Positions 33,001 through 36,000 of a stretch of 64,000 nucleotides of DNA are shown one piece after another. Where the stretch lies: the NCBI RefSeq assembly GCF_048403405.1, contig NZ_CP183129.1. The stretch is one strand, 5' to 3'. How positions within the stretch are numbered: the stretch's first letter is position 1; each line of letters opens with the position of its first letter. Position numbers: made by a program. Source of the DNA: Escherichia coli. GTDB taxonomy: Bacteria; Pseudomonadota; Gammaproteobacteria; Enterobacterales; Enterobacteriaceae.

Positions 33001-36000
33001 AGCCCACTTTCATCAACTTACCTTCGTTTACCAGTGTACGAAGAGCTCTGCCAACCTGATCATAGCCAGCGATATCCCTGAAATCATCCCGGGTGAACAC
33101 ATAACGTTTTGAACGGTTCAGTCGGGACTGAATACGGTCTTTTGTAGTCATGTTTCCTCCGAAAAATTTTCACAATGATAGCAAAAATATGACATGTTTA
33201 ATAGCGGGGCAAGGCCACATTACCTGTCTGCTAATACATTTGGATAGTGCCTGGCAATTATGTCATTTAGCCTGTCAACCAGTTCTGGTTTCCTGAACGT
33301 GATGTGTGCGGAGCCCTTCTTAAAGTATCTGATGCTGAACATTTCGTCTTCATAGCGCTCTTTACCCTGAACGGACTGGATGTGACCATCCAGACGAATA
33401 GTGATGTTTTCCCGGTTGTCGGGAATCGGTTTGTCGCTGAACAGATGTAGCATTCTTTCCAGATCGGCGAGTCGGTCAGTCTGTTGTCCGGTGATAAGAT
33501 GAAATCTCCACCGGTCCCATCTCACCAGATTGTTGATAATGATTTTACTTCCAAATTTACAGGGAGAGTTGGTTTTATAATTCCAGCTCAGTCCCCTGAA
33601 GACGTTGATCACTCCCCGCTCAAACACCTCATCCTTGTTCTGGTGCAGTTGTTTAAATGTGCTCAGAATGTTCGCTTCGCTGATTTCCGGAAAATTATCG
33701 TACTCCAGTGACCGGTACCATGTATCACGGGCCTGCGCATCCATTAAGGAAAGCATCCTGGAACGTTGCATCAGGTCACGCCAGATTTCACGGTCAAGGT
33801 TGCGGGTGATGGCTTTCATTGCCGTTTCAGGTTTCTCCATGAGCCAGCAGCCGCAGCGAAAATCCTGTTTCATGGCCCAGTCCCGGGTGGTTTTACCTCC
33901 AATGCTTTCCGTCAGAACTGAGATTTCAGCCAGTTGCCGGATAAGTGTGTCGATTTGCAGCAGTGTACTTTTTCGTACAGCCAGAATGTGGTGGATACTG
34001 GTTGAGCAGATAACTTCCGTATGCCCGTTGACCACTTCCGGACGGGAGGCTGTGATATCAGACATAATCGATATTTATATGAACGCATCCCGTTTGCAAA
34101 GGCATCCATTGTTCTGACATCGACGGTAGGTTGCAGCTTTATATCCGGCTTTATTGCAGCCCGGAAGCTGCGAGCCCCTATGTAATTCGCCGACTCACGC
34201 CTCATTTCCTCTGCGGGCTTTAGGCCCAATCGATTATCCAGGTTTAGTGAGTCACGGTCTTACCTGTCTTTGTCATCACGCTGGCTGCCAGAGCAACCTT
34301 TCTGCATTCACCCTTTTGTAAAGAGTTTATGTTTATCGGTATCAGCGATTAATCAGGCCTGATACTGACATGATTTTTGTCGTATTTACGTCCGTGAGCG
34401 GCTATTGCCCACACCGTTCGCGCCAGCTTGTTTGCCATTGCGACGATTGCCACGCTGGCCGGACGACGCTTTTTCAGTTCGGTTATCCATGGACCAGGTT
34501 CTTTGGTCAGTAATGCTGCCGCCCTTGCACCATGAATAAACAGGGTTCGCAGATATTTATCACCACGTTTGCTTATTCCCAGCAGGCGGATTTTTCCTCC
34601 TGAGCCTGTCTGTCTGGGCACCAGACCGATAAACGCGGCGAATTCCCGTCCCGACTTAAAGGCGGAGGCGTCTCCCATCGTGGCAACGGCAGCGGTGGCG
34701 ATTAACGGCCCCACGCCTGGGATGTTCAGTAACCGCTGACAGGTTTCATTCTGTCTGGCTATCGCCTGCAACTGCTTCTCAATGTGGTCAAGATGTTCAT
34801 CAAGTTCAGTAATTCGCTGATATTGTTCATCCAGCATGTTTATCAGGTAGAGCGGTAGCCGCTCCTTCAGACGCTCCAGGGCTTCCGGCACCTCCTTCGC
34901 CAAAGCAGCACGCCCCTTGTGCGTCGTTTCACCAAATTCCAGCAAGAGACTGTGAAGCGCGTTTATCTGTGCTGTCCTGAACTTCACCAGTTGCTGGCGC
35001 ATTCGGTGTAACCCCAGCGTGGCCTGTTGCTCCTCGCTTTTAACGGCGACGGATTTTACCGGCTGCTGAACCGCCAGCCAGATGGCTCGGGCGTCCATCA
35101 CATCGTTTTTATTTCCCATCACGAATGCTTTGACGAACCGGCCTTTGAGTAATCTGACCTTATGTCCCAGTTTCTGAAGCTCACGCGCCCAGTGATGAGA
35201 ACCCCCACAGGCCTCCATGCCGATAAGGCAGGGTTCACGGTTGCTGAAATATTCAAGGAATTTCTCACGCTTAACCTGCTTATCGATAATCTCTACGGTA
35301 TGTTCATCAACGAAATGCACCTGCATAAGATGTTTTGCAATATCAACGCCGACAGGGATATATTTCATGGTGTGGATCCTCCAGTCTGTTGGGAGCGAAA
35401 CGCATCCCGTTGGGCACGATGATGCCGGAAATCTGCGGGGATCCACACTCATCTACTTAATCCCCGAGCGGCTCATTTCATAATGTTGGGATGCGTTCAT
35501 TACATTTCCTTTTTGCAGATAAATGAAAACGCCAGCCCTGTTCAGGCTGGCGTCAGTGGAATAAAGTCTGGTGAGTAAGACTCACCTGTTCTGTTGCAGA
35601 AGCTGCTGTTGGCGCAGGGTACGGATATCTTCCCTGGCCTGTTTAATGCAGGGCAGCAGTGCTGCTGAATCCGTTTTATCCTCATCGTTGTCGAAGATAA
35701 TCCCTGATTCGCAGTCAATATTGTCCTGCAGCCACGCAATCAGAATATCCAGCGCTGTTTCCGTGGTTAATGATTTCATGTTGTGAATTTCCGGGTTACC
35801 AGTCGAAAGTGGGTAAATCCGGCAGGCATTCAGCGCTGGCATCCAGATGAATGAGACTGACGCCATAACGTCGGGTAAGTGTGACAACCAGACGGCGGAA
35901 CGTTTTTGACAGCCCCAGGCGTTTAAGCCGCAGAACCGGGTATGACCACGCATCGGTACGTAACAGATATCCGCTACCTGTAAAATGAATCCATTCTGAT

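What the first reader, a model, noticed from the sequence alone, without database searches (positions are those of the whole stretch)
34066..35580. IS110-family element whose leader shares a repeated 11-nt motif with flanking DNA (bridge-RNA-like)
The DEDD recombinase gene is preceded by a roughly 210-bp leader containing an inverted repeat and two copies of GAACGCATCCC-like sequence (near 35397 and, reversed, 35492). A third copy lies just outside the other end at about 34085. In IS110-family elements the leader encodes a guide RNA with loops complementary to target and donor DNA, so these matches are what such an RNA would need.
Basis: inference. Interest (0 to 1): 0.58.

Follow-up and report, generated by a model that had tools for sequence, protein, structure and literature searches.

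The report
ISEc11-like insertion sequence with 3' guide RNA

Summary
The window (E. coli ATCC 25922-like) holds a roughly 1431-bp IS110-family element of the IS1111 group on the minus strand, at about 34077-35507. Its transposase is 79-81% identical to those of ISEc11 and ISEc66.

Two of them are the perfect 13-bp subterminal inverted repeats (34079-34091 and 35488-35500), and both lie inside the element. None is flanking DNA. The third copy (35398-35408) is one arm of a local hairpin in a conserved 5' UTR fold that buries the ribosome-binding site. Its likeness to the repeats disappears in more distant relatives.

The guide RNA sits in the 272-nt non-coding region downstream of the transposase gene. 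A covariance model built only from 21 relatives hits the window once, at 34127-34272(-), with 162 bits. The structure has two internal loops. Across 14-22 relatives with different insertion sites, one loop covaries with the target flanks (0 of 20000 permutations do as well). The other loop covaries with the element's own terminal extensions.

Near-identical copies sit at the same intergenic site, between the DUF957 and DUF4942 genes, in diverged CP4-like islands. An empty site exists in CFT073.

Verdict: a new member of a known kind.

The parts
34077..35507 (-). Whole insertion sequence, about 1431 bp, IS1111 group of the IS110 family. The ends are uncertain by 1-2 nt because an A/T run is shared with the target.
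   Evidence: Empty site in CFT073: flank identity runs up to 34075 and resumes at 35506. Six copies are 99.3-99.9% identical while their flanks are only about 90-93% identical.
34349..35368 (-). Transposase gene, 339 aa, with the DEDD/RuvC-like N-terminal domain, the Transposase_20 C-terminal domain, and the GLVPRQTGSG motif at residues 248-257.
   Evidence: Pfam PF01548 (1e-13) and PF02371 (1.2e-22). NF033542 'IS110 family RNA-guided transposase', 338 bits. 79.4% aa identity to ISEc11 Tnp and 81.1% to ISEc66 Tnp.
35488..35500 (-). Left-end subterminal inverted repeat (ATGAACGCATCCC on the minus strand), preceded by the 7-nt extension AAATGTA (35501-35507).
   Evidence: Perfect 13-nt inverted repeat I5. 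Conserved in all relatives at the same distance from the end.
34079..34091 (-). Right-end subterminal inverted repeat (GGGATGCGTTCAT on the minus strand). It lies inside the element.
34127..34272 (-). Core of the guide RNA (long seekRNA / bridge RNA). It has six helices and two internal loops, one binding the target and one binding the donor.
   Evidence: Leave-window-out covariance model R1: one hit, 162 bits, E 9e-34. Hand-drawn structure: 96.4% of cells paired, 14 of 28 pairs with compensatory changes, slid controls 28-36%. RNAalifold recovers the same helices independently.
34228..34238 (-). Target loop, 5' guide GAUAAUCGAUU. It is complementary to the top strand of the right target flank (ATCGATTAT).
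   Evidence: 9-nt complement to the flank. This position is hypervariable among relatives and matches each relative's own right flank (permutation test 0/20000). It is homologous to the ISEc11 top-strand match (PMC11187229).
34204..34213 (-). Target loop, 3' guide CAGAGGAAAU. It has the same sense as the left flank plus the first bases of the element (AAAGGAAAT), so it pairs with the bottom strand.
   Evidence: Cognate contiguous match averages 5.0 against 1.46 for non-cognate pairs; permutation test 0/20000.
34180..34187 (-). Donor loop, 5' guide AAUUACAU. It is complementary to the left-end extension ATGTAAT.
   Evidence: Covaries with the left-end extension in five sequence variants across 21 relatives: TTACAT/ATGTAA, TCTCAT/ATGAGA, TGACAT/ATGTCA, TCTTAT/ATAAGA, TTCCAT/ATGGAA.
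34137..34144 (-). Donor loop, 3' guide AUAUAAAG. It has the same sense as the right-end terminus plus core (CATATAA).
   Evidence: ATATAA, ATACAG and ATATAG in the RNA track CATATAA, CATACAG and CATATAG at the right end in all 22 relatives.
35366..35455 (-). Structured 5' UTR of the transposase mRNA. The outer stem (35439-35448 with 35370-35379) buries the Shine-Dalgarno GGAGG (35378-35382). Inside are hairpin S2 (35413-35426) and hairpin S3 (35391-35408).
   Evidence: This is the MFE fold in the window, ISEc11, Citrobacter L022 and Vibrio L024, with z-scores from -2.9 to -3.7. On alignment A3, 84.7% of cells are paired and 7 pairs show compensatory change, against 37-55% paired in slid controls.
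35398..35408 (-). It is the 5' arm (GGGAUGCGUUU) of hairpin S3.
   Evidence: The arm changes with its local partner in relatives (L011/L013 G-C to A-U, L014 C-G to U-A, pairs 62-70 and 63-69). It is replaced by unrelated hairpin sequences in L021-L024.
34094..34099 (-). -35-like hexamer TTGCAA in the right end. After circularisation it would lie 16-17 nt from a -10-like hexamer formed at the joined ends (a junction promoter).
   Evidence: Read from the sequence. The hexamer is conserved in all 22 relatives as TTGCAA, TCGCAA or TAGCAA. A junction promoter was shown for ISEc11, as cited in PMC11187229. For this element it is inferred, not tested.
34304..34311 (-). Segment GUGAAUGC near the start of the 3' non-coding region. 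It is complementary to the right-end inverted repeat within the same transcript and resembles the left-end repeat.
   Evidence: RNAalifold outer helix, columns 12-19 with 248-255. Pair 18/249 is G-C in 17 sequences and A-U in 4.
35508..35520 (-). Left half of the target (host DNA): ...CTGCAAAAAGG on the minus strand.
   Evidence: Empty site CTGCAAAAAGGAATATCGATTATG in CFT073. The 56-mer around it is found at 100% identity in 527 E. coli records.
34062..34076 (-). Right half of the target (host DNA): AAATATCGATTATGT on the minus strand. It overlaps the start codon of the DUF4942 gene.

Best explanation
The element is an IS1111-group insertion sequence, a close but distinct relative of ISEc11 and ISEc66. 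It encodes a DEDD transposase followed by a co-transcribed guide RNA in the 272-nt non-coding region downstream of the gene.

The RNA has two internal loops. The target loop has a 5' strand that pairs with the top strand of the right target flank and a 3' strand that pairs with the bottom strand of the left flank plus the core. The donor loop does the same for the element's own terminal extensions at the left and right ends. This arrangement directs orientation-specific insertion, without duplication, into the conserved sequence CTGCAAAAAGG/AATATCGATTATG between the DUF957 and DUF4942 genes of CP4-like islands.

The 11-nt motif is the pair of subterminal inverted repeats. These lie just inside the RNA-read extensions and are presumably read by the protein or contribute to the geometry of the ends. 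The motif-like sequence in the leader is an arm of a hairpin in a conserved 5' UTR fold whose outer stem sequesters the ribosome-binding site. This is most likely a brake on transposase translation.

Shown here: the boundaries, the site specificity, the RNA structure and its covariation, and the covariation of guides with flanks and with ends. Inferred: that the RNA is expressed and processed, the circular intermediate and junction promoter, and the regulatory role of the 5' UTR.
For: - Boundaries and empty site.
- Same site in six copies, with the element 99.3-99.9% identical and the flanks about 90-93% identical.
- Family: Pfam and NCBIfam matches. The closest relatives are annotated ISEc11 and ISEc66.
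- 13-bp subterminal inverted repeats.
- RNA: a covariance model built without the window hits only 34127-34272(-), 162 bits. 96.4% of cells are paired and 14 of 28 pairs are compensatory. RNAalifold agrees.
- Target guides: cognate against non-cognate right match 6.9 vs 3.35 nt, left match 5.0 vs 1.46 nt, with 0 of 20000 permutations as good.
- Donor guides covary with the terminal extensions.
- Experimental precedent in ISEc11: the 3' non-coding region is essential, its RNA co-purifies with the transposase, and the top-strand match lies 5' of the bottom-strand match (PMC11187229). Bridge RNAs are predicted in the right end of 93% of IS1111 elements (PMC11208160).
- 5' UTR fold.
Against: - There are no expression data for this copy, and no promoter is predicted on the transposase strand inside the integrated element.
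- The right-flank guide matches the window's site only over 9 nt, displaced by 2-3 nt from the register seen in most relatives. In the strict register only about 4 of 11 positions match.
- In ISEc11 the 82-nt target-loop RNA alone supported transposition. The donor loop's role therefore rests on covariation only.
- Rfam has no matching family.
- Left-guide matches are short here, 5-8 nt.
Confidence: 0.88

Rival explanations
1. One reading: the 5' leader encodes the bridge RNA, and the repeated GAACGCATCCC copies are guide/donor/target matches. This is the organisation seen in the IS110 group, for example IS621.
For: The leader is structured. It contains a sequence complementary to the left-end inverted repeat (I8). 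In the full-length leader of this element, the MFE fold pairs those two segments over 11 bp.
Against: - The covariance model from relatives finds nothing in the leader.
- The leader shows no target complementarity above chance.
- Variation in the inverted repeats among relatives (L007, L008, L012, L014, L015) is not compensated in the leader copy, and changes in the leader copy (L011, L013) break pairing with the repeat.
- The resemblance is absent in L021-L024, although their inverted repeats are intact.
- ISEc11 mini-elements with only 50 bp of the left end still transpose, which leaves out this region.
- The copy at 34085 is not flanking DNA.
Confidence: 0.03
2. The three motif copies are protein-binding sites. 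The two subterminal repeats would be transposase binding sites at the ends. The leader copy, which shares 13 nt with the right-end copy in this lineage, would be an operator through which the transposase represses its own expression or end usage.
For: The exact 13-nt identity between 34082-34094 and 35399-35411 (D4) is longer than the 9 nt shared in relatives. How the subterminal repeats are recognised is unknown (PMC11187229 discussion). The leader copy lies 16 nt upstream of the Shine-Dalgarno sequence.
Against: The leader copy is better explained by a locally compensated hairpin. The similarity is not conserved across the family. There is no direct evidence that the protein binds DNA at these repeats.
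Confidence: 0.07
3. A lineage-specific RNA switch. In this element, the 11-bp pairing between the left-end repeat and hairpin S3 competes with the fold that occludes the Shine-Dalgarno sequence. Only transcripts that start at or before the left end (from the junction promoter or by read-through) would then be translated.
For: The MFE fold of the 145-nt leader uses the long-range pairing and leaves the Shine-Dalgarno region largely open. The 93-nt 3' part alone folds into the occluding structure.
Against: The z-score of the full leader fold is only -1.8. The extended complementarity is confined to this lineage and there is no covariation for it. Transcripts from the junction promoter and read-through transcripts would both include the repeat, so the switch would discriminate little.
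Confidence: 0.05

Closest known systems
ISEc11 (IS1111 group; seekRNA shown experimentally, Siddiquee et al. 2024, PMC11187229)
   Same: - 339-aa transposase, 79% identical.
- Same subterminal inverted repeat and the same 7-nt left-end extension AAATGTA.
- Same conserved TTGCAA in the right end.
- 3' non-coding region alignable end to end, with the same helices.
- The top-strand match lies 5' of the bottom-strand match in the same loop.
   Different: - Overall DNA identity is only about 77%.
- Both target-loop strands are rewritten: GATAATCGATT / CAGAGGAAAT here against AACAGTATTTT / CCGTGAAAAT.
- The target is CTGCAAAAAGG/AATATCGATTATG rather than GTGAAAATACTG.
- The element is about 1431 bp against 1443 bp.
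- The leader is shorter by about 11 nt, and its S3 hairpin arm has extended identity to the inverted repeat.
ISEc66 and unnamed E. coli, Xenorhabdus, Photorhabdus, Citrobacter and Vibrio relatives (L008-L037)
   Same: Same architecture, helices, donor loop and 5' UTR fold.
   Different: Each has its own target-loop sequences that match its own flanks. Some have different left-end extensions with matching changes in the donor loop.
IS621 / IS110-group bridge RNA (Durrant et al. 2024, PMC11208160)
   Same: A DEDD recombinase plus one RNA with a target-binding loop and a donor-binding loop. Each loop reads both strands around a short core.
   Different: In IS621 the RNA is upstream of the gene, in the left end. 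Here it is downstream, in the right end. The order of the top-strand and bottom-strand guides is reversed. The inverted repeats are 13 bp here against 2-3 bp there. There is no useful sequence similarity between the RNAs.

Membership tests
IS110 family | DEDD (RuvC-like) transposase with an N-terminal PF01548 domain and a C-terminal PF02371 domain | tested here: met
   PF01548 at residues 6-144 (1e-13) and PF02371 at residues 210-285 (1.2e-22). NF033542 scores 338 bits against a cutoff of 140.
IS1111 group | Subterminal inverted repeats of 7-17 bp, set a few bases in from each end | tested here: met
   Perfect 13-bp repeat at 34079-34091 / 35488-35500. It lies 7 nt from the left end and 2-3 nt from the right end, as defined by the empty site.
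IS1111 group | The long non-coding region is downstream of tnp, so the right end is longer than the left end | tested here: met
   272 nt downstream (34077-34348) against 139 nt upstream (35369-35507)..
IS1111 group | Transposase of about 330-350 aa with the C-terminal motif GL-P----S(t)G | tested here: met
   339 aa, with GLVPRQTGSG at residues 248-257. The criterion is taken from PMC11187229.
IS1111 group | Orientation-specific insertion at one specific sequence, without a regular target duplication | tested here: met
   Six copies sit at the same DUF957/DUF4942 intergenic position in the same orientation, in diverged islands. The empty site shows only an ambiguity of 0-2 nt within an A run.
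seekRNA / bridge RNA of IS1111 elements | A structured RNA from the 3' non-coding region with a top-strand target match 5' of a bottom-strand match in one internal loop | tested here: met
   Structure and covariation. Guide/flank matches and permutation test.
seekRNA / bridge RNA of IS1111 elements | A second loop complementary to the donor (the element's ends) | tested here: met
   The donor-loop strands covary with the left-end and right-end extensions in 22 relatives. Functional need is not shown, since the 82-nt RNA sufficed in ISEc11.
seekRNA / bridge RNA of IS1111 elements | The RNA is expressed, processed and bound by the transposase | not testable with these tools
   Needs RNA-seq or RIP. 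Shown only for ISEc11, ISPa11, ISKpn4 and ISPst6 (PMC11187229).
IS1111 group | A circular intermediate carrying a promoter assembled at the joined ends | not testable with these tools
   A -35-like TTGCAA is conserved in the right end (34094-34099), and a junction -10 is plausible from the sequence. The original ISEc11 promoter paper could not be read.
IS110 group (IS621-like organisation) | Bridge RNA encoded in the long left end, upstream of the recombinase gene | tested here: not met
   No covariance-model hit in the leader. The leader shows no target complementarity above chance. The leader is the shorter of the two non-coding ends.
Rfam RNA families | A match to a curated covariance model | tested here: inconclusive
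   No relevant hit in 33500-36200 at E up to 10. Rfam 15 appears to hold no model for this RNA.

The most novel reading that the evidence does not exclude
Two points go slightly beyond the published ISEc11 work.

(1) The 3' half of the 'long seekRNA', whose role was left open, may be a true donor-binding loop. Its two strands track the 5-7-nt terminal extensions of the element through at least five independent sequence variants.

(2) The family shares a sequence-conserved, Y-shaped 5' UTR that buries the ribosome-binding site. In this lineage it has acquired an 11-bp complement to the left-end repeat. This could be a dedicated translational control element, or a transposase-binding RNA, that couples transposase synthesis to the state of the element.
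Probability: 0.3. Interest if true: 0.45.

Novelty: new member of a known kind. Interest (0 to 1): 0.3.

Why it matters
The practical value is correct annotation. In IS1111-group elements the guide RNA is downstream of the transposase gene, and the conspicuous repeated motif is the subterminal inverted repeat, not a guide match.

The set of 22 relatives gives a clean natural reprogramming series. Target-loop sequences are rewritten for at least a dozen different sites on a constant scaffold, and donor-loop sequences track the terminal extensions. This supports the two-loop bridge model for the ISEc11 clade and could help in designing guides.

The element also marks a conserved insertion hotspot in the CP4-like islands of E. 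coli. About 60 of 5426 complete genomes carry the insertion, while most genomes carry empty sites.

Tried and rejected
- Rfam search of 33500-36200 at a permissive threshold gave only a chance 20-nt HIV SL4 hit.
- Leader as guide RNA: rejected.
- Conserved long-range RNA stem between the left-end repeat and the leader copy: rejected. Seven of nine close relatives carry changes that break rather than compensate it, although it is the MFE fold in this particular element.
- RNAalifold on 10 sequences paired the two donor-loop strands with each other. This was rejected because L022 and L034 break the pair and the 22-sequence fold drops it.
- Search for an empty GGAATCGATT variant of the target, which would fit the right guide in the canonical register: none at 99% identity or more in 5426 genomes. 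GGAATATCGATT is found at 100% in 527 records.
- The original ISEc11 junction-promoter paper (PMC1483014) is not held, so the promoter hexamers are my own reading of the sequence.
- The ISfinder name of this element could not be checked. PGAP gives it only the generic family name.
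Full report
**What is at the locus.** The window matches E. coli ATCC 25922 and about 60 other complete genomes at 99.9% identity across 33900-35750. On the minus strand, 34349-35368 encodes a 339-aa protein with the two Pfam domains of IS110-family transposases: PF01548 (1e-13) and PF02371 (1.2e-22). It scores 338 bits against NCBIfam NF033542, 'IS110 family RNA-guided transposase'. It also carries the C-terminal motif GLVPRQTGSG. The nearest annotated relatives in E. coli are ISEc66 and ISEc11, at 77-79% DNA identity and 81% and 79% protein identity. Both belong to the IS1111 group.

**Boundaries and target.** E. coli CFT073 carries the same two flanking genes without the element. 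Aligning it shows left-flank identity up to 34075 and right-flank identity from 35506 onward. In transposase orientation the empty site reads ...CTGCAAAAAGGAATATCGATTATG.... The element is therefore about 34077-35507, or about 1431 bp, with 1-2 nt of ambiguity in a shared A/T run. Positions 35508-35580 are host DNA holding the intrinsic terminator of the upstream DUF957 gene (35528-35554).

Five further copies in other strains all lie between a DUF957 gene and a DUF4942 gene in the same orientation, but in different CP4-like islands: next to ghrA/tRNA-Ser, next to cadC, or next to an integrase. The element is 99.3-99.9% identical among these copies, whereas 700 bp of flank on either side is only about 90-93% identical. 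These are therefore insertions into paralogous copies of one specific site. The 56-mer spanning the empty site occurs at 100% identity in 527 records.

**The motif.** GAACGCATCCC is exact at 34081-34091(+) and 35488-35498(-), and has one mismatch at 35398-35408(+). The first two are the cores of a perfect 13-bp inverted repeat, 34079-34091 / 35488-35500. This repeat sits 2-3 nt and 7 nt inside the two ends. These are the subterminal inverted repeats that define the IS1111 group (PMC11187229; PMC11208160).

[quoted passage not shown] - I collected nine E. coli relatives and 22 loci from other genera.
- In the alignment of the 3' region, long invariant blocks are interrupted by two hypervariable stretches.
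- A hand-drawn structure with six helices and two internal loops is paired in 96.4% of cells. Fourteen of its 28 pairs show compensatory changes, and slid controls give 28-36% paired.
- RNAalifold on a wider 22-sequence alignment recovers the same helices unaided.
- A covariance model built from the 21 relatives, without the window sequence, finds exactly one hit in the 64-kb window: 34127-34272(-), 162 bits, E 9e-34. It finds nothing in the leader.

**Guides and what they match.** The first loop holds the two hypervariable stretches.

- In the window, the 5' strand GAUAAUCGAUU (34228-34238) is complementary to ATCGATTAT in the right flank. The 3' strand CAGAGGAAAU (34204-34213) repeats the left flank plus the first bases of the element (AAAGGAAAT).
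- In ISEc11 the homologous stretches are ACAGUAUUUU and GUGAAAAU, which match its published target GTGAAAATACTG.
- Across 15 elements with different insertion sites, each RNA matches its own flanks far better than the flanks of the others. The right match averages 6.9 nt against 3.35 nt, and the left match 5.0 nt against 1.46 nt.
- None of 20000 permutations reaches the observed totals.

In the second loop, the 5' strand AAUUACAU (34180-34187) is the complement of the left-end extension ATGTAAT. The 3' strand AUAUAAAG (34137-34144) repeats the right terminus CATATAA.

- Among relatives the 5' strand changes together with the left-end extension: TTACAT/ATGTAA, TCTCAT/ATGAGA, TGACAT/ATGTCA, TCTTAT/ATAAGA and TTCCAT/ATGGAA.
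- The 3' strand changes together with the right end: ATATAA, ATACAG and ATATAG.

This is the two-loop target/donor arrangement of a bridge RNA. The RNA reads the short extensions outside the inverted repeats, not the repeats themselves.

**The leader and the third motif copy.** The last roughly 90 nt before the start codon fold into the same shape in the window, ISEc11, a Citrobacter relative and a Vibrio relative, with z-scores from -2.9 to -3.7.

- An outer stem (35439-35448 with 35370-35379) includes the Shine-Dalgarno GGAGG.
- Inside it are an invariant small hairpin (GGCAUCAnnGUGCC, 35413-35426) and a second hairpin, S3 (35391-35408).
- The outer stem is kept through full sequence replacement: GUGUGGAUCC/GGAUCCACAC here, GGCUCC/GGAGCC in Citrobacter and GGAUACUCCC/GGGAGUAUCC in Vibrio.
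- On the alignment, 84.7% of cells are paired and 7 pairs show compensatory change, against 37-55% paired when slid.

- Its changes in relatives are compensated by its local partner (pairs 62-70 and 63-69).
- They are not compensated by the left-end repeat. Conversely, repeat variants in L007, L008, L012, L014 and L015 are not matched in the leader.
- In L021-L024 the hairpin is present but has no likeness to the repeat.
- ISEc11 mini-elements with only 50 bp of the left end still move, so this region is not needed in cis.
- The leader has no target complementarity beyond chance.

In this lineage only, the arm has drifted to 13 nt of identity with the right-end copy. The full-length leader can then pair it with the left-end repeat. 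I treat that as a lineage-specific curiosity.

**Mechanism, with status of each step.**

Shown by sequence comparison:
- a site-specific, orientation-specific element;
- a conserved structured RNA region downstream of the gene;
- loop sequences that covary with the target flanks and with the element's termini;
- a conserved 5' UTR fold that occludes the ribosome-binding site.

Inferred from ISEc11 and IS621 experiments:
- the element excises as a circle;
- the joined ends create a promoter. A conserved TTGCAA at 34094-34099 lies 16-17 nt from an A/T-rich hexamer formed at the junction;
- the transposase mRNA and the RNA are co-transcribed and the RNA is processed;
- transposase bound to the RNA pairs both strands of target and donor around a short A-rich core and exchanges strands.

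**Open problems.**

- In most relatives, and at the right junction of copies L002 and L003 (CATAT-AATCGATTATG), the right guide abuts the core. The natural empty site has two extra bases (AATATCGATTATG). The window copy reads CATAT-AAATATCG and L004/L005 read CATAT-AATATCG.
- No empty GGAATCGATT site was found. Either a 2-nt bulge is tolerated, or the junction was edited, or the guide evolved on a slightly different site elsewhere.
- The need for the donor loop is not established, because the 82-nt RNA sufficed in ISEc11.

**Verdict.** This is a correctly spotted IS110-family element, and 'RNA-guided' was the right general idea. The specific observation was misread: the motif is the subterminal inverted repeat, the 'flanking' copy is internal, and the guide RNA is at the other end of the element. 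It is a new member of a known kind, an ISEc11-like element naturally reprogrammed to a CP4-island intergenic site, and is of modest interest.

Noticed in passing
window 35366-35455 (-); also L007, L022 and L024 leaders: The ISEc11 clade shares a Y-shaped 5' UTR that buries the Shine-Dalgarno sequence. Its inner hairpin GGCAUCAnnGUGCC is invariant even in Vibrio relatives whose transposases are about 55% identical. Conservation at the sequence level suggests a specific binding partner, not just a structural role.
   Followed up: partly
window 34304-34311 with 34079-34086 (-); alignment A4 columns 12-19 / 248-255: The start of the 3' non-coding region carries GUGAAUGC. This resembles the left-end repeat and can pair with the right-end repeat in the same transcript. 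Pair 18/249 is G-C in 17 sequences and A-U in 4. RNAalifold closes the whole roughly 245-nt region with this and further covarying outer pairs.
   Followed up: partly
window 34072-34081; L002, L003, L004 and L005 right junctions: Near-identical copies differ at the right junction: CATAT-AAATATCG (window, L001), CATAT-AATATCG (L004, L005) and CATAT-AATCG (L002, L003). Only the last fits the right guide in the register used by most relatives, yet no empty site of that form was found in 5426 genomes.
   Followed up: partly
right flanks of L008-L037 and window 34062-34064: In 16 of 18 relatives the right target flank contains ATG, usually 7-8 nt after the right terminus. The 5' guide always starts with (A/G)AU, opposite that ATG. 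This echoes the ATG that opens the left-end repeat at a similar distance from the core, as if the right half of the target mimics the left end.
   Followed up: no
window 35528-35554 (-) and 35570-35586: A strong intrinsic terminator of the DUF957 gene lies 21 nt upstream of the left end, and a second small hairpin overlaps the end of that gene. The element is co-oriented with the host operon (cbtA, DUF5983, DUF957 | IS | DUF4942), so the insertion separates DUF4942 from its upstream genes.
   Followed up: no
window 31846-33151 (-): Two adjacent ORFs, of 131 aa and 305 aa with a 4-8-nt overlap, lie downstream of DUF4942. By eye they look like an AbiEi/AbiEii-type antitoxin and nucleotidyltransferase toxin pair. 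The C-terminal part of the larger ORF looks degenerate. No tool was run on them.
   Followed up: no
L017 (Brenneria sp. 4F2) and L027/L028 (Brenneria, Affinibrenneria): In L017 the 3' non-coding region of a relative is interrupted after about 70 nt by unrelated coding-like sequence. The same sequence (ATGACGCAAGCAAAATCTGTGAA...) lies directly after the right end of L027/L028. This suggests a nested or truncated insertion involving another mobile element.
   Followed up: no
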